Notes under the pieces: generated by a model
Told to the model about the DNA's origin: nothing
What the model saw: the letters and a program-made list of their open reading frames with translations, nothing else
Databases searched by the model: none
Program-made: the position numbers and the translations under genes
Assembly: GCA_043818015.1 (NCBI GenBank)
Contig: JBDRGH010000003.1
Coordinates: 1 to 62,575 of the forward strand
Direction: 5' to 3'
DNA: 62,575 bases
Source of the DNA: Pseudomonadota bacterium
Lineage (GTDB): Bacteria > Desulfobacterota > UBA8473
In this document: piece by piece, positions 12,551-38,996 of the stretch
Position numbering within the stretch: position 1 is the first letter of the stretch
Layout: every line of letters starts with the position of its first letter

Positions 12551-14989
12551 TCAGTCTCTGCTCCTTATTAAAGATCTCATTTGTCCATCGTTCTGATAGT
12601 CTCTCCTCACCGCCCTCACTGCGATGGCGTCCAATGTTTCAGCCAGAACTTGCTGGTCCATGAAAGTAGATCCCTCCAGATGATAATGATTTTCCTGCAC
12701 AGGTCTCACAGAAGCATTCCCTTCTCTGTCGGAAAAGACGACAGGGATGCTGCCACCTCTGAGCGGAACGACAGCTTCGTCACCGCCCTCTCCGGCCCTG
12801 ATGAGCTGTCCCTGTCCATTCCCTGCTCCTCTGACGATGCCACCATATTCATAGGCTGGCGGTTTCTGGGCTGATATTTGCGCAATTTGAACAGCTCCCA
12901 TGGCCGCTGTTATGCCTGCCAAAACATAAGATATCGGAGGAGGCCAATTCCCTATAGCTTGTAAAATGCCAGCAGCAGTGTTGATGACAGCTTCCGCTAT
13001 CTTTGCCATTTTCATCACTCTGAACATCTTGTTGGCATTCTTGCTTCCTTCTACATAAAGCATCTCTGCGATGTTTGTCAGCATTGCAGCTCCTTGCTGC
13101 GCTGCCGAAATCTTCTCCTGCCATACGGCAAGAGAACTCTGTCTTTCTTTCTTAGCAATAGCTTGCGATTTTAATAAAGCTAACTTTTCCAATTGCTCCT
13201 TTGTGGCCCCGTGCTGCTTCATAAGGTCCACCTGCTTGGTATAAAAAGAGGTGATCTCTTCGATCTCCGAATCGTATTGCATCTTGATCTGCTCAAACCT
13301 GTTTGCGGAGGTCTTGAGCCTAAATTCTTCAAGCAGTTTTTGGATTTCTTTATAAGCTTCTAATTCCTTCATTCCTTGGCTTCTGAAATCCATGGCAGGG
13401 AGCATCGGCGTCTCCCAGGTGGCTGGTTTTGTTGGTTCTGCTCCTGCTGGCTTTGGACCATAGCCACCTTTTGGCATATTGGCTTTTGTAGTTATAGCCC
13501 ATTCAAGGATCTTATTTTTCCATTTCTCTATTCCCTCTGCTGCTTTTGAATAGGATATAGCAGCAGCATCCACTTTTACAATTTGACTTTCTAAGGAATT
13601 ATCAAGCACATCACTAAAGGTACGAAACTCTTCCGAAGCTCCTTTTAATTTTCGACCAGTCTCTTCTAAAAACTCTCCTGGAAATTTTTCTGCAAGCCAT
13701 GCGCCCTTTTCTAAAATCCAAGCCAATTTATCTGCAACGACTTTCATGACAGCTAAGACGGCAAACTTTACTGCTTGCCAAGCAAATTTTAAAGCCAAAA
13801 TGGGCTTGACAGCTGCAGCAGCTAGTAAGGTCATCATCACAAGAGTGTCCACCACAGCCTTCTGGATATTATCTCTGTTTTGACGGATGTAACTGGTTAA
13901 ATTCCTTAGCCCTTCTGACAGAAAATCAAAGATCCATTTTCCAGCTCCTTCGAATGCATAATAAATCTCAATGCCCGCCTCTTTCACATTACTTATGAAG
14001 ATCTTCCACCTTCCTTGGAAGGTGTCCATCATGCGTTCGTACATCTTGGCGGCTCTACCTGTTCCTTCTTGAGCCTCTATAAGCTTTTTGACAAAGCCGT
14101 CGAAATCAAGGGCTCCATCTCTGGCATATTCCGCCAGCTTCTTCATGTTGAGGCCGGCCCGTGTGCCGAACATGTCGACCGCTTGAGTGACTGTGATCCC
14201 AGCATCTCCTACCGTCTTCAATATCTCGCCAAAGGTATGAGTTTGTGGATTGACATCTTCAAACACCAGATTCATCTCTTTGAGAGCCTTCGTCACGGAA
14301 TCACCTTGCTTGGAGAGCTGTACCATGGACATACGCAGGTTAGTGCCGGCCATCGTCCCTTGCAAGCCAAGATTGACGAATTGAGCAACCGCTGCCGTAG
14401 TTTCCTCAAGCGACCAGCCAAGGGCTGCTCCTGATGTGCCGGCATATTTCATGGCCTCCGACAGTTTGTCCATCGTCAACAGGGAACTGGTGATGGCCTG
14501 AGCGTAGGTGTCCACAACCCTTTGAGATTCTTCTGCTCGTAAATTGAACTGCCTCAAGGTCGATGCCAATAGATAAGTGGCCTGCGCCATCTCTGTCGAA
14601 GTCGCACCGGCCAGCACCATGGCACTTCCGGTTGCTGCAAGAATTTGCTTGGTGTTCATGCCGGCGGAGGCAAGATCATACATGCCTTTGGCGGCCTCAG
14701 CAGCTGTGAAGGCAGTGGTCCTACCCAGTTCTCTTGCCTTGTCCCTCAGCAGATCGAGATCCCTTCCAAAAGCCTGTGCCACCGTGGCTGTCTTCATCAG
14801 CTCAAACTCAAACTTGCTTCCGACCAAGGCAGCAGCCGTGCCAATTCCAGCAATGGCAATTGCAGCCCGCTTGGCATATGTAGCTATGTCCTTAGCCCCT
14901 TGCTGGGCAATGCTCCCAACCTTGGACATGCCGCTTTTATAGCCTGAAATGTCCGCGCCGATTCTTGCAGTTAAGTGCTCAGTCGTCAT
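12551..14989 (-). CDS. tail tape measure protein
   Basis: 812 aa. TP901-type core (ELGRTTAFTAAEAAKGMYDLASAGMNTKQIL...LRQFNL), long helical and hydrophobic stretches, and a position after the G/GT chaperones. Confidence 0.9.
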   Translation of the reverse strand: MTTEHLTARIGADISGYKSGMSKVGSIAQQGAKDIATYAKRAAIAIAGIGTAAALVGSKFEFELMKTATVAQAFGRDLDLLRDKARELGRTTAFTAAEAAKGMYDLASAGMNTKQILAATGSAMVLAGATSTEMAQATYLLASTLRQFNLRAEESQRVVDTYAQAITSSLLTMDKLSEAMKYAGTSGAALGWSLEETTAAVAQFVNLGLQGTMAGTNLRMSMVQLSKQGDSVTKALKEMNLVFEDVNPQTHTFGEILKTVGDAGITVTQAVDMFGTRAGLNMKKLAEYARDGALDFDGFVKKLIEAQEGTGRAAKMYERMMDTFQGRWKIFISNVKEAGIEIYYAFEGAGKWIFDFLSEGLRNLTSYIRQNRDNIQKAVVDTLVMMTLLAAAAVKPILALKFAWQAVKFAVLAVMKVVADKLAWILEKGAWLAEKFPGEFLEETGRKLKGASEEFRTFSDVLDNSLESQIVKVDAAAISYSKAAEGIEKWKNKILEWAITTKANMPKGGYGPKPAGAEPTKPATWETPMLPAMDFRSQGMKELEAYKEIQKLLEEFRLKTSANRFEQIKMQYDSEIEEITSFYTKQVDLMKQHGATKEQLEKLALLKSQAIAKKERQSSLAVWQEKISAAQQGAAMLTNIAEMLYVEGSKNANKMFRVMKMAKIAEAVINTAAGILQAIGNWPPPISYVLAGITAAMGAVQIAQISAQKPPAYEYGGIVRGAGNGQGQLIRAGEGGDEAVVPLRGGSIPVVFSDREGNASVRPVQENHYHLEGSTFMDQQVLAETLDAIAVRAVRRDYQNDGQMRSLIRSRD

Positions 14990-19276: not shown

Positions 19277-19687
19277 TTAGCCTCTCCTGCAGTGAAAGAC
19301 AAAGCTGAGGTCCAAGGGATCAGTCCACACGTTTATCACACCATAAGTGACCCCGCTTTCGACCAAGACGTCTTTGTTCCTCGGAATTCCTGAGACCAAC
19401 TCCTTATAGACCAAGAACCTAACATCGCCGATCTCAAGGTCACCTCCACCTAAAAAAACTTCTCTGTCGCTGAAGTTACCTTTTAAAGCGTCGACTTCTC
19501 CGTAATCGGTATATACCGAAGAAATGGACTGGCTCTCCGGATCAAAATCGTCCAATTTGCTCTCGTCGAACTTCCTGTATTTGACGGTGACGTGGTTGCT
19601 GATCGATGAATCTCTGGTCAGGTCTCCAACTATGTTTTTGATTCGCGTGAGGGATCTCGTGCTCAATAGCTGCCTTGGCTGTGCCAT
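19277..19687 (-). CDS. head-tail joining (head closure-like) hypothetical protein
   Basis: 136-aa ORF between the adaptor-like and gp10-like genes. The call rests on position only. Confidence 0.35.
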   Translation of the reverse strand: MAQPRQLLSTRSLTRIKNIVGDLTRDSSISNHVTVKYRKFDESKLDDFDPESQSISSVYTDYGEVDALKGNFSDREVFLGGGDLEIGDVRFLVYKELVSGIPRNKDVLVESGVTYGVINVWTDPLDLSFVFHCRRG

Positions 19688-24177: not shown

Positions 24178-24489
24178 TTATAGTTTTATTTTCTTTCTTT
24201 CCTTCTTGTCTTCGCCCATTAGTTCGACCAGCTTGCTGAGCTTCTCCGAGATGTCCATCAGCAAGAAGGTCTGCAACTGCCAATGGGCATCGTGCCTCGT
24301 CTCCACGTCCTTGGCAAGGTTGTAGGCAAACCAGCTCACTCCCGCCTTGTACGGTGGCCTCAGAAGCAGATGCTTCTGCACCAGTTCCGGAAAAATCTCC
24401 GGGTGGTCTTGGAAATATCGCCTTCTGTCTGTCAAGCTGGTAAAATCATACTCCGTGATCTCTTCTTTCGTCTCTTTGTCCATCGTCAC
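24178..24489 (-). CDS. hypothetical protein
   Basis: 103-aa ORF. Its start overlaps the upstream stop by 4 nt. Confidence 0.4.
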   Translation of the reverse strand: MTMDKETKEEITEYDFTSLTDRRRYFQDHPEIFPELVQKHLLLRPPYKAGVSWFAYNLAKDVETRHDAHWQLQTFLLMDISEKLSKLVELMGEDKKERKKIKL

Positions 24490-26438
24490 TCTCCTTTCGG
24501 TTCTTCTTTTGTTTCGTTTTCGGTTACGGGCGGTTGCTGTTCTACCGTCGCTGTCTGCTGCTTCTGAAGCAGCTCCTCTGGGCTCAGAAACTCTCCCGTC
24601 GGGATGTCATAGTGCCACCCTTCCGGAATGTTCAGCCTTCCAGCCTCCTGGAGGATGACGTTCTGAATTCCCACCTGTAGGTTTTGCTTTTGGAGATCCA
24701 GATTCTGGAGTCTCTCGTGGAAAAGTTGAATGTTGAGTTTTGCTTCTTCCTTCACTTTCTTCATGATCTCTCCTCTCCTTGGAAATGGTATGTATGGTTC
24801 TAAAAAATTCAGCTTCTGTATTGCTGGCACGAATGTGGGCAGCAGCCTGTATGAGGTGGCATAGTGCCTGTAAGCCAACTCCTTGTTTCCGACGACCTCT
24901 GCTGCCGTGGCCATGTTGAGATACACCACCCATCCCGGGCTCATGCCGTCATAGTTGTGCCACATCTCCTCTGCATACTTATAGGCTGTTTGAGGAGAGA
25001 CGTTGAGATGGCCGATCAGCAGATAAGTATTGTACATGGTCTCTTTTGGAGCCCATTTCACCGTGCTGTTGCAGTCCAGTTCTTTCTGCCTCAGATTCTT
25101 TCCCTTCTGAAACCTCATGAAATAATAAGATGCTATGACGTCCTTCGCCACCATCTCCCACAAGAACAGGGCGAAGAAGGCGGCCAGCATCGGAAGAAAG
25201 ACGAAGGGCAACGTTACCGTCTGGAATGCGGGAGAAGCCAACAGGACGATGAAGCCTCCCAGGGCCCAGAAGACCATCCCGGTGGACGGTATCCTCAAGC
25301 TGAAAAAGAAAAGGCCATGGATGGCGATGGACAGGAAAGCGGTCAGCAAGAACAGCATCAAGAGGCTCCCCTCCAACACCATGGCACCAAAATAAAAGAT
25401 GCTTCCCACGAGACCCCAGCGGATTGCAGAGCCCAGAAGTCCAAGCTCCACCAGATCCTCAAGCCAATCGTTGTGGCACTCCCTCGGCTGCGGGGTGATA
25501 TACCTGTTTGGATCCAAGAACTCTGGATCCTTGTCGTTTAAAGCTGCCTGGGCAAAGTAGACCAGCTTTCTGTAAGACCTGAGCCCGTGTCCCTGCCAGA
25601 TCTTCTGCTTGAACAGATGCCATCCGGCTTTCCAATAGCAGATCCTGTAACGCAGAGTGGCCAATTTGGTGGTCTTGCTCCCGTTTATCCTCTCCTTGTT
25701 TATCCTCTCCCAATTCTTCCACAGCCAGGCAGCCACGACAACTCCAGTCAAGACGGTAAAGGGGATCAACGCCTTCAGCCAGTTTATGCTTATAAAATTT
25801 CCAAAGGAGAGGAAGAGAAAAAAGCCATAGACGGAGCCTATCAGGCCGAGCAATGCTCCTCTGCACTTGGTCTTCCAGAGCAGGAAGCAGGTCAACGAGA
25901 CTCCGAAGAGGAAAAAGAATGACACGGACAGGGACAGGTAGATCCCCAGCCAGAACATGGGAAGGATGTAGCTGGCGAAGAAATTCATGTTCCCTATGGT
26001 GCTGATCGGCCTCTTGTCCTTGGAATCCATCTTGAGCCTGGTGGGAAAGACAAAGTCGATCCCAAATGTCTGCCCAAAGGCATATAGCTGAACCAGGGAG
26101 CCTGCGCCATACATTACGATCAAAACAGAGAAGAGGGAAGAGGGATCCAGATGGACGGCAAGGATGAAGACCAAGAGCAAAGGAAGCTGGACGGCAAACT
26201 CCTTCCTGGCTCCGTCGAGGACCTCGGTCCAAAAGGTATTGACCGCCATGTATCCAATCAGCGAAAGAGAGAGCAATACCGGAAGATCAAGAAGGATCTC
26301 TCCTGTCCCCAGCAGGATCATCCCGATGCCGGAAAGCAAACAGAGGAGAGCCGTCTGCGGAAGACTGAAGATGTCGAAGAGCACCATTGGAGCGAAAATC
26401 ATAGGAGCAATTACTATCAGATAAAAAACCCATTCCAT
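24486..26438 (-). CDS. O-antigen ligase/polymerase family (Wzy_C) membrane protein with TPR-like C-terminal domain
   Basis: 650 aa with about 10 or more hydrophobic helices. Wzy_C-type signature WQGHGLRSYRK...ECHNDWLEDLVELGLLG. The soluble C-terminal region is helical-repeat-like. Confidence 0.75.
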   Translation of the reverse strand: MEWVFYLIVIAPMIFAPMVLFDIFSLPQTALLCLLSGIGMILLGTGEILLDLPVLLSLSLIGYMAVNTFWTEVLDGARKEFAVQLPLLLVFILAVHLDPSSLFSVLIVMYGAGSLVQLYAFGQTFGIDFVFPTRLKMDSKDKRPISTIGNMNFFASYILPMFWLGIYLSLSVSFFFLFGVSLTCFLLWKTKCRGALLGLIGSVYGFFLFLSFGNFISINWLKALIPFTVLTGVVVAAWLWKNWERINKERINGSKTTKLATLRYRICYWKAGWHLFKQKIWQGHGLRSYRKLVYFAQAALNDKDPEFLDPNRYITPQPRECHNDWLEDLVELGLLGSAIRWGLVGSIFYFGAMVLEGSLLMLFLLTAFLSIAIHGLFFFSLRIPSTGMVFWALGGFIVLLASPAFQTVTLPFVFLPMLAAFFALFLWEMVAKDVIASYYFMRFQKGKNLRQKELDCNSTVKWAPKETMYNTYLLIGHLNVSPQTAYKYAEEMWHNYDGMSPGWVVYLNMATAAEVVGNKELAYRHYATSYRLLPTFVPAIQKLNFLEPYIPFPRRGEIMKKVKEEAKLNIQLFHERLQNLDLQKQNLQVGIQNVILQEAGRLNIPEGWHYDIPTGEFLSPEELLQKQQTATVEQQPPVTENETKEEPKGE

Positions 26439-26567: not shown

Positions 26568-28166
26568 TCATAGAGCCTCCTTTGACTTTACTAATCTATC
26601 CTTAATCCACTTCGGAGCTTCAAAAGCAAACCCTGCCTGCGCTGCTATTTCTGCCTGTGCAACCGTGGGAATATTCTTTGTGTAGACTTTGCCATCAGTT
26701 TCGTTAAATTCCACACCTTTTTTAAATTGTGGTTTTTGTACCTTCTTCATCTCCCACACAATCTCAATCTTTGGCTTTACCTCACCGTCAACAAGCTCAT
26801 AGCCTGTGATAGTTTCACCGAGCTTTTTGCCTTGTTTAGTTACCTTGCCGGTTTTCGGATTGACCACTTCATACAGCACTCGTTCATCAACCTCCACCAT
26901 CTCAAAGGCTTCTTCTTTCGTAACTTCAACTTCAGTGGTATTCTCTTTTATCCACTCTTTCTTCCATTGCTCTTTGTATGCAGCTTCAAGGTCAACGGAC
27001 TTGGGTATATCTGCATAATAGATAAAGGTTTTTCCTGTGAGTTCCTCAATCGCTCTTATTGCACCTGCCATATCTACGTTAATCTTTTTCCCAAGTGCCT
27101 TATTTTCTGCATAGTAAGACCAGGGATATGCTTCATTTGGGTCTGGCTGAAAAAGACCAAAATTATGCGGGGTTAATTGAGGATTGTTGCCAGACTCATC
27201 TAAGGCAAATAATTCAGAACTTCCGGTCACATCTTTTGCGTGTATCATACAGCCATTAGCCGGATTCCCCGCTGGGTCTGTATCAGCATTATGTATATAG
27301 AGTAAATTACCAATAGCAACATCCTCACTGCCCACATTTGCTGTAGCTTTCAATACATCTCCACCAATCTGCAAAGGTTTGTCTTGTGCAGAGTAGTTCA
27401 TAATCCTCTGACCGTTGGTTCCGTCAGTCGAAAAGACTCCGATTACATCACCGTAAAAGCAGACACTTAGATCAGTCTGTGACCCTGTTAATGCTCTGTC
27501 TAACACAACAGACGTTCCATCATCAGAGATTATACGATACCACCCCTCATCTGCCGCTGTAACAGTATTGGATATATGGACAGCCATGCCTGCCGAAAGT
27601 GAAAGACCATGAGCAACACCTCCAACATCAGTGATAGTTGAGGTTCCATTGGACACTCCATTACCTTCCCAACGACCTACCCTTGTGTTTTTGCCAAGCA
27701 AAAAACCATCATTCTTATCGTCCAGTGTAACGATAGTATGCCCATCGTCCCAAGGGGTTGTTATTTGGAGGTCTACATTTGGACCATAGGTTCGCAAAAT
27801 GGAAGTCCATGCTTCTGTACTCTGCAAAAGACCAGAAGCAGTCCAAAAATTGCTTGCATCACCACAAACCCAGTAATCCGCTGCCCCACTCAACCCACTA
27901 CTCGACAAGTCAATCCCCTTCGTAGCTGTGCCGAGAGAGCCAAAGACTATGCCATCATCATTAGTATCCCCACCCATAGTAACACGAGTGGTTGCACCTA
28001 CAGTAAAATCTCCACTTGCATCAAGGTCGGTAAACGAGCCTGCTGCTGGCGTAGTGCCGCCGATTGCTCCTGGCTCTTTTGGATCAAATCTTTGTCCCTT
28101 CCAAGCAATTAGGAGTAAAAAAGAGAGTAAAACCAAAGTTATAGAGATCCTTTTAAATTTATACAT
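26568..28166 (-). CDS. signal-anchored/secreted hypothetical protein
   Basis: I prefer the start at MYKFKRISITLVLLSFLLLIAW (codon 14 of the track ORF, just past the upstream stop at 28180). The central part is beta-rich and the C-terminus is Lys/Glu-rich. Confidence 0.55.
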   Translation of the reverse strand: MYKFKRISITLVLLSFLLLIAWKGQRFDPKEPGAIGGTTPAAGSFTDLDASGDFTVGATTRVTMGGDTNDDGIVFGSLGTATKGIDLSSSGLSGAADYWVCGDASNFWTASGLLQSTEAWTSILRTYGPNVDLQITTPWDDGHTIVTLDDKNDGFLLGKNTRVGRWEGNGVSNGTSTITDVGGVAHGLSLSAGMAVHISNTVTAADEGWYRIISDDGTSVVLDRALTGSQTDLSVCFYGDVIGVFSTDGTNGQRIMNYSAQDKPLQIGGDVLKATANVGSEDVAIGNLLYIHNADTDPAGNPANGCMIHAKDVTGSSELFALDESGNNPQLTPHNFGLFQPDPNEAYPWSYYAENKALGKKINVDMAGAIRAIEELTGKTFIYYADIPKSVDLEAAYKEQWKKEWIKENTTEVEVTKEEAFEMVEVDERVLYEVVNPKTGKVTKQGKKLGETITGYELVDGEVKPKIEIVWEMKKVQKPQFKKGVEFNETDGKVYTKNIPTVAQAEIAAQAGFAFEAPKWIKDRLVKSKEAL

Positions 28167-28179
28167 CGTTAATCCCCCA

Positions 28180-28395
28180 TTAGTCTTTTTTATACTTTTC
28201 AGCAAATTTTGAACCTATTTTGCCACCAAATAGAAGACTTATAAGCGTGGCATCACCAACTGTAAAATTGAACAGTTCCCCTTTCATAAAACACAGACCA
28301 GACCAAGTTCCTATAATTGTAAAAATAGTAATAGCCCACACAATTCTTGTGATGGATAAATTACCATCATCATCCTGAAATGCTTTCGCTGCCAT
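28180..28395 (-). CDS. small two-TM membrane protein
   Basis: 71 aa. Hydrophobic segments IVWAITIFTIIGTWSGLCF and ATLISLLFGG, with a basic C-terminus. Confidence 0.45.
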   Translation of the reverse strand: MAAKAFQDDDGNLSITRIVWAITIFTIIGTWSGLCFMKGELFNFTVGDATLISLLFGGKIGSKFAEKYKKD

Positions 28396-28407: not shown

Positions 28408-28782
28408 TTATCTCGCTAATATTAACCAAGCATTAAGAGCAGTAGCTTGACTTGTATACTCAACTGCTCCAATTTTCATAAATGGGCAAGCTTCTGGATC
28501 AAAATATGCAGCATCTGTACCAGCAGCAGCTTCTCCAGTAATACTTGTCCCGCTTGTGGCGATCTTTGATGCTCCAGTAGGAATAACATAGTCCCCTGCA
28601 TACTGCTCAGAAATTGAATATACCCATGTGATTCTGCCTCCTCCAGTGATAGCCCACTTTAGAGTGAAAGCATTATATCCGGCTGGTATCCTTATCGGAT
28701 CTGACCACGTGGTCGTGCCAGAAGCAGCTGTGGTGAAAGATATCGGTATCACATGGGGTGCTGGATTTTGTAACCATCCCAT
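28408..28782 (-). CDS. hypothetical beta-rich protein
   Basis: 124-aa ORF with GGGAGG upstream of its ATG. First gene after the terminator-like hairpin. Confidence 0.45.
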   Translation of the reverse strand: MGWLQNPAPHVIPISFTTAASGTTTWSDPIRIPAGYNAFTLKWAITGGGRITWVYSISEQYAGDYVIPTGASKIATSGTSITGEAAAGTDAAYFDPEACPFMKIGAVEYTSQATALNAWLILAR

Positions 28783-28801: not shown

Positions 28802-28830
28802 AAAAAGGACATCCCAATCGCGAGATGCCC
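28802..28830 (-). terminator. intrinsic terminator-like hairpin
   Basis: The minus strand reads GGGCATCTC-GCGATT-GGGATGTCC (9-bp stem including 2 G-U pairs) followed by TTTTT. It begins 13 nt after the stop of 28843..29388. Confidence 0.5.
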
Positions 28831-28842
28831 TTCTCTCCTTGA

Positions 28843-29388
28843 TCATACTCCCACTGCTATCCAGTGGATTGTACAGCCTGTCCATCCCGTCACGCCTGAT
28901 CTTCCAGGAGTACAAGTTGCACAGAGGCCAGCCGAATCCATGGTATTGAGACGCAGGGTAACGCCACCACCAGTACCAAGGGCATTCCTCTGAAAGTGTC
29001 TTCCATGAGGATAATCTGCCCGTCCCGTGGTAACTGAACTGCTCTCGTAAGAAAAGACAAATGCATGGATAGTAGTCAGTCCGGTAGTAATCTGCACAGT
29101 GCCATCAGAAAGTGTCGTACCGCTAGGATTCAGTGCTCCTGATACCAGGCTAAAAGCTCCTCTATAGATCTTATATGCTGCCTGGCCGAAATCCACACTT
29201 CCATGAAGTGTCGCAGTTGCGGCAGCAGTTATATCTTGAGATGTAGTTCCAACCAAAGCGCCAACAAAATCCGTGGCTATTATTTCAGCGTTTGGACCGT
29301 CGATTGTTACTCCAGAAGGTTTTGTGGTAAGGTAATGGGTTTCTACCGTATTTCCAGATCTTGTTAATCTTGTCTTTTTACGTGCCAT
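28843..29388 (-). CDS. tandem paralogue 3 of a 180-aa family (function unknown)
   Basis: MARKKTRLTRSGNT...HGSVDFGQAAYKIY...CTIHWIAVGV; AAGGAGG upstream of the ATG. Confidence 0.65.
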   Translation of the reverse strand: MARKKTRLTRSGNTVETHYLTTKPSGVTIDGPNAEIIATDFVGALVGTTSQDITAAATATLHGSVDFGQAAYKIYRGAFSLVSGALNPSGTTLSDGTVQITTGLTTIHAFVFSYESSSVTTGRADYPHGRHFQRNALGTGGGVTLRLNTMDSAGLCATCTPGRSGVTGWTGCTIHWIAVGV

Positions 29389-29402
29389 ATCTATTTACCT
29401 CC

Positions 29403-29951
29403 TTAAACTCCCACTGCTATCCAGTGGATTGTACAGCCCGAGTATGAGTCAGCGCCAGGAAAACCGAGAGGTGTGCAGGCTGAAACAACGCCGGCAGCAC
29501 TGATGGCATTGAGGAACACGGTAACTCCGCCGGCAGTCTTATATCCAACCGCATGATGTATCAGTCTTGGGAAAGTTGGATTACCTTGCGAAGCTGCGCT
29601 GTGCTCTAGAGATATCTGAATCGCATGAATGGTGGTCAATCCTGTAGTAAACTGTATGGTGCCGGCAGAAAGAGGAGTCCCTCCAGCAATTCCTGATCCT
29701 GATGTCAGATGCTCCGCTCCCATGTAGACCTTGTATGCTGCCTGGCCGAAATCCACACTTCCATGAAGGGTTCCAGTCACATCACCACCAACCACTGTTC
29801 CAGTCAGAGTTCCAACTAAGTTGCCAGTAAATGTGTCAGCAGTCGCTGTTGCATTTGGCCCGTCGATTGTCACTCCAGAGGGTTTTGTAACAAGGTAATA
29901 AGCTTCTATCGTATTTCCAGATCTTGTCCATCTTGTCTTTTTACGTGCCAT
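29403..29951 (-). CDS. tandem paralogue 2 of a 180-aa family (function unknown)
   Basis: MARKKTRWTRSGNT...HGSVDFGQAAYKVY...CTIHWIAVGV; AAGGAGG upstream of the ATG. Confidence 0.65.
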   Translation of the reverse strand: MARKKTRWTRSGNTIEAYYLVTKPSGVTIDGPNATATADTFTGNLVGTLTGTVVGGDVTGTLHGSVDFGQAAYKVYMGAEHLTSGSGIAGGTPLSAGTIQFTTGLTTIHAIQISLEHSAASQGNPTFPRLIHHAVGYKTAGGVTVFLNAISAAGVVSACTPLGFPGADSYSGCTIHWIAVGV

Positions 29952-29965
29952 ATCTATTTACCTCC

Positions 29966-30508
29966 TTAAACTCCCACTGCCATCCAGTGGATTGTGGCTC
30001 CCGTCCAGTCTAGAAGACCAGGTGTGCAAGGTACACATACATTGGCAGCACTAATAGTATTAAGAAATACGGTGACGCCACTGGCAGTCTTATATCCAGT
30101 CATATAGTGCATACCCCTTGGAAAGAGAGAATGGCCTTGCGAGGTTGCGCTGCTTTCCAGAGATACAGAGAGTGAATGAATAGCAGTTAATCCTGTAAGG
30201 AACTGGATAGTGCCAGCAGAAAGGGTCGTTCCTCCGGCAGCTGTCACTCCCGCGTTGTCTCCTAATCCGTGTGCTCCCATGTAGACCTTGTATGCTGCCT
30301 GGCCGAAATCCACGCTACCGTGAAAAGTGCCAGTCACATTACCAGTCAAAGTACCAGTTAAATCACCAGTTAAATCACCAGTTAAAGTTATGGCTCCCAA
30401 TGTCGCATTTGGACCGTCGATTGTTACTCCGGAACCAGGCAAGGTAGTAAGGTAGTAAAGTTCTGCTGTACCCCCCGAACGGGTAAGTCTTGTTTTTCGT
30501 CTTCCCAT
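29966..30508 (-). CDS. tandem paralogue 1 of a 180-aa family (function unknown)
   Basis: I prefer the start at MGRRKTRLTRSGGT (codon 12 of the track ORF), which has AAAGGAGGA 8 nt upstream. Ends ATIHWMAVGV. Confidence 0.65.
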   Translation of the reverse strand: MGRRKTRLTRSGGTAELYYLTTLPGSGVTIDGPNATLGAITLTGDLTGDLTGTLTGNVTGTFHGSVDFGQAAYKVYMGAHGLGDNAGVTAAGGTTLSAGTIQFLTGLTAIHSLSVSLESSATSQGHSLFPRGMHYMTGYKTASGVTVFLNTISAANVCVPCTPGLLDWTGATIHWMAVGV

Positions 30509-30531: not shown

Positions 30532-30768
30532 TTAAAGCCAAGTTGGAGAGGAATATCGCGAACTCATCTCTGCTTGGCTTTCGTGAAAGGCTGATAGCCT
30601 TTCTTGCACTTCTTCTCGATCGTCCAGAAAGTCCTTCTCCCAGACGACCAACGTGCTAAATCCATACTGCTTAAAGTGGTCGATCCTGCACTGAGGACCG
30701 TCCCCTTCATGCCAATAGTTGCCGAACAATTCTATCAGCTTCTTCTGGCCGTCGACGTTCGCAATGGG
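30532..30768 (-). pseudogene. C-terminal remnant of a Vsr/DUF559-like (PD-(D/E)XK) endonuclease
   Basis: The open frame has no ATG and reads ANVDGQKKLIELFGNYWHEGDGPQCRIDHFKQYGFSTLVVWEKDF. This matches only the xxGxYWH...G(F/W)xVxxxWE tail of such nucleases; the N-terminal part is absent. Confidence 0.35.
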
Positions 30769-30811
30769 TTAGCCAGATGAGAACATCAGCTAACCCATTG
30801 ATTTTATTAGA

Positions 30812-31978
30812 TTAAGTACTCTTAAAAACGAATCTGAAATCGCGGGCACCAACCCCTCCATAAAATCTTACTTTATGCCGAGATTTGATGTCAGCTTCAA
30901 ATTCCCTGTAGTGGCCAGGCTTGGCGTCCATCGTCTGCAGCGGCCATACATTTATCCACAAGAAGCACCTTTTAAAGTCACCCCAGTACCAGTATGAACT
31001 CGAATTGGCAGTGATCCACGGCGACGTGTAAGGCACGAACTTTCCGCGCCAGTATGACGGTGCCCTTTCAGCAGTCTCCGGGTGCGTCGGCGAACTGGAC
31101 AGCTCCCAGGCCTCCTCCATGAGGTCGACGGGGAACAGGGCCGGCTTGCCGATGATGCTGGCAAGCATGTAGTTCGTCTCTGGACTGTCGTCCGTCATTT
31201 GGTGCGCCAGCTTCTCCACTGCCGCAAGTCCTGCCGCCCCGAAGGGGTTGCTGGCCGCCAGGTTGTCCCCCGTGTGCGCAGTCGTGGTGCTCGCGTTGCC
31301 GTAGATGGCGACGGCGCTGTCGCCAGGCATCCACACATTGCTGTTGGCGTCGATGCAGCCCTGCACGATCAACTGTTCTTTCTTGGCCGCACAGCCTTCT
31401 CCTATTCCTTTGGCTTTAAGGAGTATTTGGCCCGTCTGATCCATCATGATCAACTCTTCCGTGACGTCGATGATCCTCCCCCACTTTGTCGTCTTGATGG
31501 TCACATACTTCTCCTCGAAGCCGGTTCCCTCATAATCCTTGCCTTCCGGAACTTCCAGAGGAAGGACATGGGCGGTCGTTCCCGTGATCGTCTCCTTCTT
31601 CAGCTTACCAGGCATCTCCGTGACCAAGTACTGCCCGATCGTGTCGACGCTGTTGTAGCCCTCGATCATCGTCTTGCTGATCAAGGCTCCGGTGATCTTC
31701 TCGAACGAGCCGGTCCCGACGGCCTCTCTCTTTGTCCTACCCCACAGACCAACGTCGGGATAGAAATTATGTCCCGTGTCCACATAGAGTGCCCCCCTCG
31801 GGGTCCTCATGAGCGGAGCATTGTCGGTAAAGGCATCCCAAAGCTCCCTGATGGATATCTCTTCGGGCTTGATCTCATCCTTTTGGATTGCCTCCATGAT
31901 GATGTCCACGACAGCTATGGCTCCCAGACTCTCGTAAAGCTCCTTTAAGTTTCCTCTCCCTTTTTCGTTAAAAGCCAT
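30812..31978 (-). CDS. major capsid protein (probable)
   Basis: 388-aa ORF with a strong AAGGAGG site. It follows the scaffold and decoration-like genes. GC-rich backbone composition. Confidence 0.6.
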   Translation of the reverse strand: MAFNEKGRGNLKELYESLGAIAVVDIIMEAIQKDEIKPEEISIRELWDAFTDNAPLMRTPRGALYVDTGHNFYPDVGLWGRTKREAVGTGSFEKITGALISKTMIEGYNSVDTIGQYLVTEMPGKLKKETITGTTAHVLPLEVPEGKDYEGTGFEEKYVTIKTTKWGRIIDVTEELIMMDQTGQILLKAKGIGEGCAAKKEQLIVQGCIDANSNVWMPGDSAVAIYGNASTTTAHTGDNLAASNPFGAAGLAAVEKLAHQMTDDSPETNYMLASIIGKPALFPVDLMEEAWELSSSPTHPETAERAPSYWRGKFVPYTSPWITANSSSYWYWGDFKRCFLWINVWPLQTMDAKPGHYREFEADIKSRHKVRFYGGVGARDFRFVFKST

Positions 31979-31995
31979 GATTCATGACCTCCTTC

Positions 31996-32499
31996 TCATT
32001 GAATTTTCCCTCCGGGGCCGATGATCGACCTCAAAAGGAATGTAATGCTTGCACCCCTCACCACATCTCTCCTGGCATAACCAAGAGGATAGGTGGATCC
32101 GGACTCCCACAGCACAACCTTCTGGCTGTAGAGCGAGGTGCCAGATCCTGCCGGCATGGCCACTTGGCCGACCTTGTAAGTCTTCGGCGACCTCAGCGGA
32201 AATTTGAAATATCCGCTCGTGGCGACCGCGATGTTCTCGGTCGTGCCAGAATCAGAACTACCTGACGCCACCCCGAGAAAGTTATCGGCAGCCAGCTTCT
32301 GGTTGCTTGCCAACGTCTTGGTCGCCCCACCGATCATACTGAACGGATATGCTGAATTGTTGGCGGTGGAAGTCCCGTTGTTTCTGAGTCCATCCATCCT
32401 GTCGAGGAAGATCAGATCTCCCTTCTCAATCTCGGTCGAGCCCCTCGCCTCCACTGCCACCGACAACGTTGGCCATTTTATGTGCCGATTGGTATCCAC
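31996..32499 (-). CDS. head decoration-like protein (DUF2190-like), paralogue B
   Basis: 167 aa. Shares SAYPF, FLGVA...G.T..IAVATSGYFKFPL with the upstream paralogue. Confidence 0.4.
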   Translation of the reverse strand: MDTNRHIKWPTLSVAVEARGSTEIEKGDLIFLDRMDGLRNNGTSTANNSAYPFSMIGGATKTLASNQKLAADNFLGVASGSSDSGTTENIAVATSGYFKFPLRSPKTYKVGQVAMPAGSGTSLYSQKVVLWESGSTYPLGYARRDVVRGASITFLLRSIIGPGGKIQ

Positions 32500-32510
32500 A
32501 CACCAGCCTT

Positions 32511-33038
32511 TTAAGTCATGCCTCCTGTCACAATAGCTCCACGACCATATTTTGTACAGATGGCGATCCTGGCCGTCTTTGCTGAAACTTTCGTTTCACA
32601 CACCCAACCAATGGAAACTCCAGCGGCATTCAGATGCACGGTGTATGAAGCCGTGGTGCCCGACGTTGCTGAAAAGCCAGTTGGATGAGCCAATGCAAGA
32701 GCGCCAACAGTGATGCCTGACGTCGCCTTAAGCGGAAATTCAAACACTCCAGCGGTGGCACAGGCGATTGTGTCTGTGCTGCCGTGAGGACTGTCGTCCA
32801 AGGCAACCCCACAGAAAGAAAAGTTGAGGCGTGTCGTTCCAGATGCCGACGTTGCCACAGTAGATGCAGATGCAAACGGATAGGCATAATTGGTGCCTCC
32901 AGATTTGGCTCTCAAAGCCGTGTTAAGATCAATCCAGCCGCTCTTGGCGACGATCATCAGGTCTCCAGGCTTGACGGTAACGCAGTCAGGCACTGTGACG
33001 TTGATGGGCAGCATATCTCCGTATAAATGTCTGTTCAT
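32511..33038 (-). CDS. head decoration-like protein (DUF2190-like), paralogue A
   Basis: 175 aa. KPGDLMIV, YAYPF, FCGVALDDSPHGSTDTIACATAGVFEFPL. Confidence 0.4.
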   Translation of the reverse strand: MNRHLYGDMLPINVTVPDCVTVKPGDLMIVAKSGWIDLNTALRAKSGGTNYAYPFASASTVATSASGTTRLNFSFCGVALDDSPHGSTDTIACATAGVFEFPLKATSGITVGALALAHPTGFSATSGTTASYTVHLNAAGVSIGWVCETKVSAKTARIAICTKYGRGAIVTGGMT

Positions 33039-35540: not shown

Positions 35541-36614
35541 TCATCTTTTCTTTTTAGCTTTCACCTTCAGCTTCTCAACAGTCAGTAGCCTATTGTCCTT
35601 CACCATCTCGCTGAACTGGATCTTCCCGTCCTTCCACAGACTATAGCGACTCTTGCCCATGATGCCCTCTACAAAGCCCGGGGACTCAAGCTCCTGCGCC
35701 TTGAGCCAGTCATGGTAGGTGACTGTCGACGGAATCTGGCCGCCCATGTTATCTATCGTCTCCTTCGGGAACTCTTCCCTGTTTATCCCAAGTTCCTTCC
35801 AAGATCTGGTGCAGGGAGAATAACAACATCGGCAGAAGGGGTGTTTTGGCAAAATAGGAGCGTCGGCAATGTTGCTATCATACAAAAATATTCTCCCATC
35901 ATCACTCCCGCATACCAAACATGTCCTTCTATCAAGGGTAGACGTATATTGTATACCCTTCAGCACGTCCTGATTTGCATCGTACACCGCCTTGCTGACA
36001 CTGTTGCTCACCCTCTGGATCTCCGTCCTGGCTATCATCGCTGACCTGTCGACGAGGATCCGTCCCAATTTTCCGCCCATCTGTCTGCCCAGTCCGATCA
36101 GCTCCCTGCGAGCAGTGGCCATGTCCTCGCCGGTGATCACTGCCTGGGCCAACCGACCTCTGATGGCCCTTACTGCCTCTGCGTTGTGCCACAGCATCCG
36201 ATCTCCAAACAGCTCTCCCAGCATCGGCTGCTCCACCAGCGCAAAGATCTGTTCAGCAAGCAGCCTATTCAGGACGATCCCCACTCTGCCCAGAACGTCG
36301 GCCAACGGTCCCTCTGCCAGACCGGCCTGTACCGCAGCAAACTCGTTCAACTGGCCTATCAAGTTTGCAACGGAGCTGGAAGTGGCAGCATCCAACACCA
36401 CATTGATCTCGTCCACCATGTTCTGAAGTCTCTGCATACGCCATTCGCGGGTGAAGCCAGACCATAGTTCCGCCTGTGCCATCCTGGCATGGAGAATCGC
36501 CTTGGCCTCCATGAATGGCTGAACGACCTGCTGGATGGCATTGTTCTCGAACCTACGAATGTAGTGAGCCTGCCTCAAGATCTGGTTTCTCAGTTGGGTG
36601 TTTATGTCCGTCAT
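35541..36614 (-). CDS. head morphogenesis protein, SPP1 gp7 / Mu F family
   Basis: ARTEIQRVSNS...TSTLDRRTCLVCGSDDGRIF motif. Positioned after the portal. Confidence 0.8.
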   Translation of the reverse strand: MTDINTQLRNQILRQAHYIRRFENNAIQQVVQPFMEAKAILHARMAQAELWSGFTREWRMQRLQNMVDEINVVLDAATSSSVANLIGQLNEFAAVQAGLAEGPLADVLGRVGIVLNRLLAEQIFALVEQPMLGELFGDRMLWHNAEAVRAIRGRLAQAVITGEDMATARRELIGLGRQMGGKLGRILVDRSAMIARTEIQRVSNSVSKAVYDANQDVLKGIQYTSTLDRRTCLVCGSDDGRIFLYDSNIADAPILPKHPFCRCCYSPCTRSWKELGINREEFPKETIDNMGGQIPSTVTYHDWLKAQELESPGFVEGIMGKSRYSLWKDGKIQFSEMVKDNRLLTVEKLKVKAKKKR

Positions 36615-37559: not shown

Positions 37560-38996
37560 TCAGCCTTCATTTGCCATAGGATTGTATGCATCATCCCCCT
37601 GCTCATCTTGCATGTGGACCTTCTCCGTCTCCGGATCGAGGCCCCGCTTCAGCTGCCAGGTCTTCCTGCTCACAACCTTGTTCCTGTACTCGATCTCCAT
37701 GGCCTCGTCTTCCTGCTTGATGTCCTGATGGATCAAGGGCTGAAACTCTACGTCGACTTCCGTGGAAGTGTTTTTGGGGAGTGGGCCGTGATCTATGGCA
37801 TTCTGTATCACGGCTCCGAAGATGTCGCTGTAGATGGTCTCCGCAAAATCCTGCCAATCCTCGATCTCCCTCACGAAGGGATTCTGGGCTATCATCGTCG
37901 AACTGTAATTTGCATTCGAGTAATCCGCGGTAAGGATCATCTCCGGAAAGCCGACTCCGGCTGCCACGGAAAGGAGCATGTTCCTTCCGTCCTCTGCCAC
38001 GTCGCTCGCATTGATGTTGGGAGAGAGTAGCTCATATTTGACGTTTGGTCCGGTGGTGATGACCGTCCCCCTCTCCAGCATCTTCGTCTTCTTGCGGTCA
38101 GACTCCTTCGTCTCAGACTCCAGGTTGTCTCGAAGCGCCTGTATCTGAGCGGTGGGAGCATCAACGTGCTTCACCAGAGCTATCGCCGTCCTGACCTTGT
38201 TGAGGACGATGCGGTCTTCCATCCAGTCCTTGTACTTCTTCAGCATCGGAGCGCAGACTTCAAGAAGGCTGATGCCCCTCTTCATGTCCGCATCCGCAAA
38301 GAGCTTATAGTGCAGGATCTCCTCCGCCGGAATCCTGGATTGAAGCTCCCCGTGATCGTCGCAAATGTAATAATGCTTGTAGTCTTCCACGTCATCCGGA
38401 TTGTGCCCTATCCCAAACGAGACCTTCTCTCCCTTGTGCAGATCCTTGTCGTCGACCTTCAGGCCTGTGGGCGTCCTGACCTTGCCCGGACGGATGAATC
38501 GAATCTTCACCAAGCCATCTTCATTTGTACCACCCTTGAACAGCCTCATAATGACCTCACCGTCCCGAAAGAAGCGGACGAAGATCTCCTTCTCCTTGAG
38601 GTTCCATTTCCTCTTCTTCGCCATGTTCTCTTTGGAGGAGCTCTCTCTCTTGAAGTTCACTATGATCTCCTTGACCTTTTCGTTCTTGTCCTTGGGCATG
38701 ATGTTGGCACCCTTGCCCACAACGAACTTGACCATCGTGCGCACGATGGCACGGGCATGGAGATTGGTGCGCCACAGCCTGTAGGCCTGCTCAAGCATCT
38801 CCCTGTGCTCCTCTTCCGTGGGCCGATATCCGGCCTCAGAGCCGTGCAGTATCCAATCAGAGTCCTCTTCCTTTTGCACTATGTTGCTTGCCTCCGCAAG
38901 CTGCTGCATGTTTTGATTGATGTAGCCAAAGAGGCTCTTCCGTTGCTCCAGCTCCAGCATGCCTATCTCTCGCTTCAATCTGTATCTCTTAAACAT
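37560..38996 (-). CDS. portal protein
   Basis: 478 aa, downstream of terL with only the radical SAM gene between them. TAGGAGG lies before the ATG. Size and composition fit phage portals. Confidence 0.7.
   Translation of the reverse strand: MFKRYRLKREIGMLELEQRKSLFGYINQNMQQLAEASNIVQKEEDSDWILHGSEAGYRPTEEEHREMLEQAYRLWRTNLHARAIVRTMVKFVVGKGANIMPKDKNEKVKEIIVNFKRESSSKENMAKKRKWNLKEKEIFVRFFRDGEVIMRLFKGGTNEDGLVKIRFIRPGKVRTPTGLKVDDKDLHKGEKVSFGIGHNPDDVEDYKHYYICDDHGELQSRIPAEEILHYKLFADADMKRGISLLEVCAPMLKKYKDWMEDRIVLNKVRTAIALVKHVDAPTAQIQALRDNLESETKESDRKKTKMLERGTVITTGPNVKYELLSPNINASDVAEDGRNMLLSVAAGVGFPEMILTADYSNANYSSTMIAQNPFVREIEDWQDFAETIYSDIFGAVIQNAIDHGPLPKNTSTEVDVEFQPLIHQDIKQEDEAMEIEYRNKVVSRKTWQLKRGLDPETEKVHMQDEQGDDAYNPMANEG

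What the first reader, a model, noticed from the sequence alone, without database searches (positions are those of the whole stretch)
28843..30508. Three tandem 180-aa paralogues with conserved ends and a divergent middle, just after the capsid gene
The three genes share a basic N-terminus (M-A/G-R-K/R-KTR-L/W-TRSG), a central HGSVDFGQAAYK-V/I-Y box, and a C-terminal TIHW-I/M-AVGV. They diverge in between. One copy has a short (L/V)TG-x periodic stretch (LTGDLTGDLTGTLTGNVTGT). At the DNA level the gene junctions are nearly identical: 29371-29435 compared with 29931-29995, covering the RBS, the start codon and the preceding C-terminus. A central segment of about 40 nt recurs near 29171, 29731 and 30281. 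The array is followed by a terminator-like hairpin (28802-28830). It therefore probably belongs to the highly expressed capsid transcript. Conserved ends with a variable core suggest a recombination-prone set of alternative surface proteins, such as decoration proteins, head fibres or receptor binders. I do not recognise the family.
Basis: seen in the sequence. Interest (0 to 1): 0.6.

Follow-up and report, generated by a model that had tools for sequence, protein, structure and literature searches.

The report
Three tandem orphan head-fibre-like phage genes
Right after its capsid gene, an uncultured tailed phage carries three diverged, intact copies of a small protein of a previously undescribed family. 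Each copy has a basic tail, a short fibre-like repeat and a beta-sandwich knob, and the proteins most likely sit on the outside of the phage head, though this is inferred and not shown.

Summary
Three co-oriented genes on the minus strand (30508-29966, 29951-29403, 29388-28843) encode 180-182-aa paralogues that are 55-68% identical. Each has a strong RBS in a 14-nt spacer, and a conserved terminator hairpin follows the array. It is not an assembly artefact: each copy has its own orthologue in independent metagenome contigs (dS about 0.65, dN/dS 0.17-0.28).

The family is an orphan. It has about 30 members, all from metagenomes, and no hit in Pfam, PHROGs, the PDB, BFVD, 50,697 phage genomes, IMG/VR or GTDB genomes. 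Members always lie after the HK97-type capsid gene of one siphovirus lineage, usually as 2-3 tandem copies produced by repeated independent duplications.

The architecture is modular. An invariant basic RRGxR N-arm is followed by an optional PSGVT/xTGx spacer, whose repeats recur in tail-fibre shafts, and then a roughly 115-aa beta-sandwich (pLDDT 81) with no significant fold match. Synonymous-site identity shows that gene conversion homogenises the N-arm, the gene junctions and a central box, while the knob diverges faster than the capsid protein.

The best reading (about 0.5) is short head fibres or decoration proteins with an anchor, a spacer and a knob. This rests on context and architecture only. 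The family stays linked to a Wzy_C-type membrane protein and a phage glycan toolkit, so a glycan-related role remains open.

The parts
29966..30508 (-). Copy A, 180 aa. Basic N-arm, a PGSGVTIDG segment, (L/V)TGx tetrapeptide repeats and a C-terminal beta-sandwich.
   Evidence: Orthologue P0004 is 82% identical (clade support 99/97). dN/dS is 0.17.
29403..29951 (-). Copy B, 182 aa. This is the copy whose structure was modelled.
   Evidence: Orthologue P0002 is 73% identical. dN/dS is 0.28.
28843..29388 (-). Copy C, 181 aa, the most diverged copy.
   Evidence: A partial orthologue lies on L011 (76 aa, dN/dS 0.17).
30330..30386 (-). 12-nt (4-aa) tandem repeat that encodes the LTGD/LTGT/VTGT stretch of copy A.
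   Evidence: The same xTGx repeats match long repeat proteins carrying Peptidase_S74 or K1-lyase_C tail-fibre domains.
29288..29432 (-). Gene-conversion tract at the B/C junction: the C-terminus of B, the AAGGAGGT RBS, the ATG and the first ~33 codons of C. Its partner is 29851-29995 at the A/B junction.
   Evidence: 145 nt, 90% identical; for B against C, all synonymous sites are identical in codons 1-20 and in the last 10 codons.
29156..29227 (-). Central homogenised box (HGSVDFGQAAYKVY). The other copies are at 29716-29787 and 30273-30344.
   Evidence: 82-90% over 72 nt; 93-97% nt identity in codons 66-75 for all three pairs.
28802..28835 (-). Intrinsic-terminator-like hairpin that closes the array.
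   Evidence: dG -19.3, z -3.4. It is conserved in L011 with a C-G to U-A compensatory change.
30762..30800 (-). Strong hairpin 12 nt after the capsid stop codon, with no U-tract. It may be an attenuator or an mRNA-stabilising element.
   Evidence: The same hairpin is present in L009 and L010 with a G-C to A-U compensatory change.
30812..31978 (-). Major capsid protein, HK97 type.
   Evidence: Pfam Phage_capsid_4, E 1.7e-15. It is 60-62% identical to the capsid proteins of L001 and L010.
30532..30729 (-). Relic C-terminus of a Vsr-like homing endonuclease between the capsid gene and the array.
   Evidence: Intact or longer versions occupy the same slot in L010 (282 aa) and L012.
28408..28782 (-). 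124-aa conserved downstream neighbour of unknown function.
   Evidence: Homologues follow the array in L009 and L011. No profile similarity to the paralogues.
24486..26438 (-). 650-aa polytopic Wzy_C (O-antigen-ligase-like) protein that stays linked to the family in all relatives with enough downstream sequence.
   Evidence: Pfam Wzy_C, E 2.7e-14. The linkage is seen in L001, L012, L014 and L015. It is 53% identical to the L012 protein.

Best explanation
The three genes encode virion accessory proteins of the phage head: short fibre or knob proteins that form a new family.

Proposed parts (all inferred):
- The invariant basic N-arm (RRGxR...TR) docks the protein on the acidic HK97-type capsid shell.
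- The optional PSGVT plus xTGx-repeat segment is a short spacer or shaft, probably formed by three chains together.
- The C-terminal ~115-aa beta-sandwich is an outward-facing knob whose loops vary.

Shown: the three genes are translated from closely spaced, near-identical strong ribosome-binding sites, on an operon that starts at or before the capsid gene and ends at the hairpin after copy C.

Shown from synonymous sites: recurrent tandem duplication followed by gene conversion keeps the docking end and the gene junctions alike, while the knobs diverge.

Inferred: one particle therefore displays two or three different knobs, most plausibly for reversible binding to cell-surface or environmental glycans, as Hoc, pb10, SPP1 gp12 and phi29 or P68 head fibres do.
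For: - Position. The array lies in the head module, immediately after the capsid gene in every relative. It is 9 kb upstream of the head-closure gene and 14-24 kb from a complete lambda-like tail module that has its own tape-measure, J-like and fibre genes.
- Expression signals. Each copy has a strong SD sequence, the spacers are 14 nt, and one conserved terminator follows the last copy.
- Modularity. The RRGxR arm is kept even in 127-144-aa members that lack the whole spacer.
- Spacer. The xTGx spacer matches repeat shafts of proteins that carry tail-fibre or tail-spike C-terminal domains.
- Knob model. The C-domain model is confident (pLDDT 81.5, pTM 0.75). The full-length model has a disordered arm, a long hairpin and a sandwich. 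The weak fold neighbours are mostly C-terminal domains of phage fibres or spikes and trimeric lectins.
- Rate of evolution. The family is 37-47% identical where the capsid proteins are 60-62% identical, and about 32% where the Wzy_C proteins are 53% identical.
- Selection. All three copies are under purifying selection.
- L009 pair. The N-terminal 60 codons are 95% aa identical and the rest 62%.
- Duplications recur in separate lineages.
- From the literature: most known decoration proteins are trimers, the beta-tulip families bind the capsid mainly through their N-terminus, and several mediate glycan or cell binding (PMC7602432). [quoted passage not shown]
Against: - There is no direct evidence of virion incorporation.
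- No Foldseek hit reached E <= 1e-3 against the PDB or BFVD, and there is no Pfam or PHROG hit for any of 20 members.
- Oligomeric state was not modelled.
- Two cement-like genes already exist upstream of the capsid gene.
- A conserved hairpin between the capsid gene and the array may reduce expression.
- The linkage to a membrane Wzy_C protein is not explained by a head-fibre role.
- One relative carries an in-frame TGA in its second copy, and another has a truncated second copy, so extra copies can be dispensable.
Confidence: 0.5

Rival explanations
1. The proteins are partners or substrates of the phage's glycan machinery and not plain structural proteins. One version: they are Thr-rich acceptor proteins that the phage's glycosyltransferases or the neighbouring Wzy_C-type enzyme decorate. 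The other version: they are lectin-like knobs that bind the glycan this machinery makes, acting at the host envelope during infection.
For: - Family members sit next to a 641-665-aa Wzy_C protein in every locus with enough downstream DNA: the window, L001, L012, L014 and L015. This holds down to about 30% family identity. In L012 a glycosyltransferase, a sulfotransferase and a methyltransferase follow.
- The proteins are 14-17% Thr and 13-16% Gly.
- The nearest, non-significant, fold neighbours of the knob include H-type lectins.
- Earlier notes on this genome describe an 18-gene glycan toolkit (not tested here).
Against: - The proteins have no signal peptide or hydrophobic segment, whereas the active sites of Wzy_C-family enzymes face the periplasm (established knowledge of WaaL, PglL and Wzy).
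- All linked loci belong to one phage lineage (capsid proteins 60-62% identical where sequenced), so the linkage may only reflect shared descent.
- A terminator separates the array from the envelope module.
- The lectin resemblance is not significant (E 0.5, TM 0.39-0.45).
Confidence: 0.2
2. They are virion fibres mounted elsewhere than the capsid shell, for example neck whiskers or side fibres on the tail. In that case they merely happen to be encoded next to the capsid gene.
For: - The xTGx repeats and the weak fold neighbours point to tail-fibre or tail-spike proteins.
- Fibre genes are sometimes displaced into head modules (leads, untested).
Against: - The tail module is complete and has its own J-like protein and fibre genes at 4.5-10.7 kb.
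- The array's position directly after the capsid gene is invariant across relatives.
- At 127-211 aa the proteins are very short for tail fibres.
- There is no match to any known tail-attachment N-terminus.
Confidence: 0.12
3. They are plain capsid cement: structural stabilisers at distinct quasi-equivalent sites, with no binding role. The paralogues would then be specialised for different lattice positions.
For: - They are small beta-rich proteins next to the capsid gene, and the copy number is stable in two related phages.
- Tandem cement paralogues were noted in other phages by earlier AI reports (untested).
Against: - Copy number varies from one and a half to three among relatives whose capsid proteins are 60% identical.
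- The knob evolves faster than the capsid protein (against 19).
- The spacer can be deleted entirely.
- DUF2190-type cement candidates are already present.
Confidence: 0.1

Closest known systems
Head fibres of phi29 (gp8.5) and Staphylococcus phage P68 (gp14)
   Same: The proposed layout matches: an N-terminal capsid-binding part, a fibrous spacer and a distal domain. Both are accessory proteins of the head, and the P68 distal domain is a receptor-binding domain (PMC6795507, PMC7602432).
   Different: There is no sequence or fold similarity. gp8.5 has a beta-tulip base and a helical supercoil, and gp14 has a 280-residue alpha-helical stalk. Here the anchor is a disordered basic arm, the spacer is a roughly 25-residue xTGx beta segment that can be absent, and the proteins are only 127-211 aa. 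Those phages have one gene, whereas this lineage has 2-3 paralogues.
Glycan-binding or adhesive decoration proteins: T4 Hoc, T5 pb10 and SPP1 gp12
   Same: They are small, dispensable-type head proteins thought to mediate reversible binding to cell surfaces or carbohydrates. gp12 is a short trimeric repeat-based spike (PMC7602432).
   Different: Hoc and pb10 are Ig-like and gp12 is collagen-like. None matched the models or profiles here.
Phage tail-fibre proteins with xTGx/xVGx repeat shafts ending in K1-lyase_C (PF24146) or Peptidase_S74 domains
   Same: They share the same tetrapeptide repeat, which HMMER matched at E 1e-13 to 1e-4 over the repeat only. They are also a repeat followed by a small C-terminal beta domain ending in a T-I-x-W-hydrophobic strand, as read by eye in P0020.
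   Different: Profile-profile comparison of the knob with 120 K1-lyase_C domains gives E 0.061 and probability 0.9%, which is not significant. No member hits PF24146. Those proteins lack the basic N-arm.
DUF2190 / Phage_cement_2 decoration proteins, which are present in the same head module
   Same: They are small beta-rich head-module genes that are also present as paralogues: two in the window and three in L010.
   Different: They are unrelated by profile comparison (E 0.074 over 11 columns) and are encoded upstream, not downstream, of the capsid gene.
Bacillus exosporium BclA-type fibres: N-terminal anchor, Thr-rich glycosylated repeat and a trimeric C-terminal knob (from my own knowledge, not tested)
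   Same: The three-part logic and a Thr-containing short repeat are analogous. The analogy is relevant only to the glycosylation hypothesis.
   Different: BclA has collagen GXY repeats and a TNF/C1q-like knob. No such fold match was found here, and BclA is not a virus protein.

Membership tests
Phage decoration/cement families in Pfam and PHROGs (Phage_cement_2, gpD, Soc, Hoc-type Ig, Dec) | Significant profile match to the family model | tested here: not met
   There is no Pfam or PHROG hit at E <= 0.1 for the three copies, apart from phrog_32533 (unknown function) at E 0.04 for copy B. Across 20 family members at E <= 1 there is no recurrent family. hhalign against the neighbouring cement-like proteins gives E 0.074.
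Solved phage head-fibre and decoration folds (beta-tulip, OB, Ig-like, jellyroll cement) | Structural similarity of a confident model to a solved member | tested here: not met
   The C-domain model (pLDDT 81.5) has a best PDB hit at E 0.19 and all TM scores are <= 0.45. The full-length model has a best PDB hit at E 0.35 and a best BFVD hit at E 5e-3 with TM 0.32.
Head fibre / decoration protein (functional class) | Physical presence on the capsid of purified virions | not testable with these tools
   The phage is uncultured and no proteomic or EM data exist.
Head fibre / decoration protein (functional class) | Encoded within the head morphogenesis module and co-oriented with the capsid gene | tested here: met
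   Gene order on the minus strand is portal, Mu-F-like, scaffold-like, two cement-like genes, capsid gene, the array, then a terminator. The same slot is used in L001, L009 and L010.
K1-lyase_C (PF24146) tail-fibre C-terminal domain | Significant sequence-profile similarity of the C-terminal domain | tested here: not met
   hmmscan finds no hit. hhalign against an alignment of 120 PF24146 domains gives probability 0.9% and E 0.061 over 41 columns.
Trimeric fibre with beta-helical shaft | Homotrimer or heterotrimer formation and an intertwined shaft | not testable with these tools
   Only single-chain prediction was available. The monomer model shows a long hairpin at pLDDT 50-70. The repeat similarity to fibre shafts is the only support.
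Secreted or periplasmic substrate of a Wzy_C / O-oligosaccharyltransferase-type enzyme | Export signal (Sec/Tat signal peptide or membrane anchor) | tested here: not met
   Read directly from the sequences, the N-termini are MARKKTR(L/W)TRSGNT... with no hydrophobic stretch in any of about 30 members.

The most novel reading that the evidence does not exclude
The paralogues are short head fibres that the phage's own glycan toolkit modifies, giving a glycosylated capsid on a phage of a Gram-negative-type host. The toolkit comprises a nonulosonic-acid pathway, glycosyltransferases and the always-linked Wzy_C-type enzyme. The Thr-rich xTGx spacer or the knob loops would be the acceptor sites, and several paralogues would provide different display scaffolds. 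Virion glycosylation has so far been documented essentially only for mycobacteriophages.
Probability: 0.12. Interest if true: 0.75.

Novelty: new member of a known kind. Interest (0 to 1): 0.42.

Why it matters
If these are head fibres, they define a new, very compact solution for decorating a capsid: an 8-residue basic anchor, an optional repeat spacer and a small knob with a fold that matches nothing solved. They would also be a clear case of concerted evolution, in which gene conversion keeps the docking end uniform while duplicated knobs diversify. That pattern is known for tail fibres and poorly documented for head proteins.

The family marks an uncultured siphovirus lineage from sediment- or groundwater-type metagenomes, whose host bin is a deep 'deltaproteobacterial'-type lineage. 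This lineage embeds a Wzy_C membrane enzyme and sugar-tailoring genes inside its structural module. Finding out whether the knobs bind or carry that glycan would show whether phage-encoded glycan toolkits act on the particle or on the host.

Practically, the small modular scaffold could be useful for phage display. If the proteins prove not to be in virions, the finding reduces to an orphan accessory gene family.

Tried and rejected
- Known families. Pfam and PHROGs gave nothing for the three copies or for 20 members, and a PDB sequence profile search gave only ribosomal L6 at E 0.87.
- Fold searches. Two AlphaFold models were searched against the PDB and one against BFVD, with no hit at E <= 1e-3. 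The resemblances to pyocin or tailspike C-termini and to H-type lectins are too weak to use.
- K1-lyase_C. By eye the strand pattern aligns and HMMER extended a repeat match into the domain. I collected 120 domains and ran hhalign, which gave probability 0.9%. Rejected as unproven. A search for PF24146 in 301 genomes of the host phylum found nothing.
- Neighbouring genes. Homology to the neighbouring 124-aa / 104-115-aa proteins and to the cement-like proteins was rejected.
- Relatives. There were none in cultured phages, IMG/VR, GTDB genomes or the 13 genomes of the host order. Only metagenome contigs carry relatives.
- Assembly artefact. Rejected because the copies differ by 32-45% in protein and each has its own orthologue. 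The A'-B' contig L004 ends in the same RBS that precedes copy C in the window.
- Stop-codon recoding for the in-frame TGA in the second copy on L010. Rejected as unnecessary, because the TGA aligns with Arg of the sister copy, which fits a point mutation or sequencing error.
- Secreted protein. Rejected because there is no signal sequence.
Full report
**What is there**

The window is a whole 62.6-kb contig (C3) of a fragmented MAG. Nearly all long ORFs are on the minus strand, and the contig is a tailed-phage genome.

In transcription order, the head module reads as follows:
- portal, 37560-38996 (Phage_portal_2);
- Mu-F-like protein, 35541-36614;
- 414-aa and 169-aa scaffold-like proteins;
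- two Phage_cement_2-like proteins, 32511-33038 and 31996-32499;
- the major capsid protein, 30812-31978 (Phage_capsid_4, E 1.7e-15);
- the three genes of the finding.

A head-closure gene lies at 19277-19687. A lambda-like tail module lies far downstream, with the tape measure at 12551-14989, a J-like protein at 6545-10684 and fibre-like genes at 4.5-6.5 kb.

**Check of the observation**

The three ORFs sit at exactly the stated limits and encode 180, 182 and 181 aa. B and C are 68% and 55% identical to A.

The gene junctions read GGAGTTTAAGGAGGTAAATAGATATG twice. Copy A is preceded by AGGAGG 8 nt before its ATG at 30508. All three copies therefore have strong, closely spaced translation signals with 14-nt spacers.

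The hairpin after copy C (28802-28835) has a 14-bp stem with A- and U-tracts, dG -19.3 kcal/mol and z -3.4.

**The array is not an artefact and not recent**

- In a maximum-likelihood tree of 23 family members, A, B and C form one clade together with a two-gene pair from another metagenome (support 99/100). A pairs with P0004 (99/97) and B with P0002.
- L004 carries A' and B' in the same order. It ends 14 nt after the stop codon of B', in the same AAGGAGGTAAATAGAT that precedes copy C in the window.
- L011, from the same metagenome as the A'-B' contig L008, carries the C-terminus of a C orthologue. This is followed by the same hairpin (one C-G to U-A compensatory change) and by a homologue of the window's 124-aa gene.
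- Orthologue pairs have dS of about 0.61-0.66 and dN/dS of 0.17, 0.28 and 0.17.

All three genes are therefore old, distinct and under purifying selection.

**Concerted evolution**

Between B and C, every identical residue in the first 20 and last 10 codons uses the identical codon. In codons 66-75 the three pairs are 93-97% nt identical. Elsewhere only about half of identical residues share a codon, and A against B shows 3 of 7 in the N-arm. That pattern is a signature of gene conversion and cannot be explained by protein-level constraint alone.

A sister phage shows the same logic more plainly. In the two L009 copies the first 60 codons are 88% nt and 95% aa identical, and the rest 64% and 62%.

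**How rare the family is**

- A search of 5.8 billion proteins found only three outside relatives.
- An exhaustive profile search of 1.84 billion representatives found 23 hits. About 17 are true members (98-211 aa), and the rest are long repeat proteins hit only through xTGx repeats.
- A profile search added six more members.
- Nothing was found in 50,697 phage genomes (for the paralogue or the capsid protein), in IMG/VR, in GTDB genomes, or in the 13 genomes of the host's order.
- No source gives a name other than 'hypothetical protein'.

**Genomic context in relatives**

| Locus | Gene order |
|---|---|
| L001 | capsid gene, 168-aa member, 127-aa short member, 115-aa gene, Wzy_C |
| L009 | capsid gene, two members, 124-aa gene, homologue of the window's 545-aa protein |
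| L010 | three cement-like genes, capsid gene, intact 282-aa Vsr-like endonuclease, two members (the second has an in-frame TGA at codon 23), 108-aa gene |
| L012, L013, L014 | two short members (L012, L013) or one at the contig start (L014), each followed by a 104-105-aa gene; then (L012, L014) Wzy_C and a 103-aa gene; L012 continues with a glycosyltransferase, a sulfotransferase and a methyltransferase |
| L015 | one member, Wzy_C |

Three things follow. Copy number ranges from one to three. Duplications arose independently in several branches. The block capsid gene / (endonuclease) / members / small gene / Wzy_C is a conserved feature of this phage lineage.

The family evolves faster than its neighbours. 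It is 37-47% identical where the capsid proteins are 60-62% identical, and about 32% identical where the Wzy_C proteins are 53% identical.

**Architecture**

The family alignment shows three parts:
- an N-terminal M-x-x-R-R-G-x-R-(L-T-R), with R3 and R7 nearly invariant;
- a PSGVT(I)DG segment and a variable spacer, which in the window's copies is xTGx/xVGx repeats;
- a C-terminal domain with invariant G78, G97, T103, G172, W177 and G181.

The short members keep the basic arm and fuse it directly to the C-domain. The arm and the knob are therefore the essential parts, and the spacer is optional.

AlphaFold2 results:
- Copy B full length: pLDDT 70, with a disordered arm (1-34), a long beta-hairpin (37-65) and a beta-sandwich (74-181).
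- The C-domain alone, with 32 sequences in the alignment: pLDDT 81.5 and pTM 0.75, with eight strands.

Neither model has a Foldseek hit at E <= 1e-3 in the PDB or BFVD. The best neighbours are C-terminal parts of a pyocin fibre, tailspikes, K1-lyase_C-bearing phage proteins and H-type lectins, with TM scores of 0.26-0.45.

The xTGx repeats match proteins that end in Peptidase_S74 or K1-lyase_C, which are tail-fibre or tail-spike hallmarks. I tested the tempting idea that the knob is a divergent K1-lyase_C domain, and the comparison was not significant. The knob is also unrelated to the neighbouring small proteins and to the cement-like proteins.

The proteins are 14-17% Thr and 13-16% Gly. 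Five of their eight to thirteen basic residues lie in the first 12 positions. None has a signal peptide.

**Interpretation**

The most economical reading is a head-associated accessory protein built as anchor, spacer and knob. Its supports are:
- the invariant head-module position;
- the operon structure;
- the modular architecture;
- the fibre-type repeat;
- the fast-evolving distal domain with a homogenised proximal end;
- a complete separate tail module.

[quoted passage not shown] It also fits the general finding that decoration proteins are mostly trimers, that the beta-tulip families bind mainly through their N-terminus, and that several (Hoc, pb10, gp12, gp8.5) mediate carbohydrate or cell-surface binding (PMC7602432).

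I put this reading at about 0.5. Nothing here shows virion incorporation or oligomeric state, and no homology supports it.

The main rival (0.2) links the proteins to the glycan machinery. The persistent neighbourhood with a Wzy_C enzyme is striking. However, it may only reflect shared descent, the proteins lack export signals, and a terminator separates them from the envelope module. Fibres mounted on the neck or tail (0.12) and pure cement (0.1) are less likely, for the reasons given under the rival explanations.

**Expression caveat**

A 17-bp hairpin lies 12 nt after the capsid stop codon (30762-30800). It is conserved in L009 and L010 with a compensatory G-C to A-U change and lacks a U-tract. 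It may stabilise the capsid message or attenuate read-through. The array is probably co-transcribed with the capsid gene but need not be expressed at the same level.

**Host**

The N-terminal half of the bin's RpoB is at most 64% identical to Desulfuromonadales, Myxococcota, Binatia and Desulfobacterales MAGs. The bin is therefore a deep, uncultured lineage of the former Deltaproteobacteria type. Whether it is the true host of this contig was not shown.

**Verdict**

The family is new and its fold is unmatched. The functional class (head fibre or decoration) is a reasonable but unproven inference. Interest is moderate, and it would rise if the proteins prove to be glycan-binding or glycosylated capsid fibres.

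Noticed in passing
window 30762-30800 (-); L009 473-517; L010 2805-2836: A strong hairpin lies immediately after the capsid stop codon and is conserved across relatives with a compensatory G-C/A-U change. The window copy has no U-tract. It may be an mRNA-stabilising or attenuating element that sets the ratio of capsid protein to downstream gene products.
   Followed up: partly
window 30532-30729 (-); L010 2847-3695; L012 3-308: The 65-aa open frame between the capsid gene and the array is the C-terminal relic of a Vsr-like homing endonuclease. L010 holds an intact 282-aa version, with repeated NUMOD-like motifs, in the same slot. L009 also carries a remnant.
   Followed up: partly
L010 4302-4814: The second family copy in this relative has an in-frame TGA at codon 23, aligned with Arg of the sister copy. 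A GTG start after it would give a 146-aa protein lacking the basic arm. It could be a pseudogene, a sequencing error or an arm-less variant.
   Followed up: partly
window 24486-26438 (-) and 24178-24489 (-); L012 1630-3910; L014; L015: A 641-665-aa Wzy_C protein with a TPR-like or coiled-coil tail, plus a 103-107-aa partner, are conserved core genes of this phage lineage inside the structural module (53% identity between the window and L012). They are not a sporadic moron.
   Followed up: partly
window 26568-28205 (-) compared with L009 2123-3229 and L011 676-1020: The window's 545-aa protein has an N-terminal membrane anchor. Its homologues in relatives share the central TNDDGI.FGSLGTATKGID.SSSGLSGA region but start with a different, soluble MRG(F/I)GWDV N-terminus that looks fibre-like. 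This suggests an N-terminal module swap.
   Followed up: no
The Pfam E-values are 1e-26 for B12-binding and 2e-21 for Radical_SAM.
   Followed up: no
window 28843-30508; family alignment A2: A Cys in a C-T-P motif is present in most long-type family members, and a second Cys precedes the C-terminal T-I-H-W strand in many. A possible disulfide or metal site in the knob was not examined.
   Followed up: no
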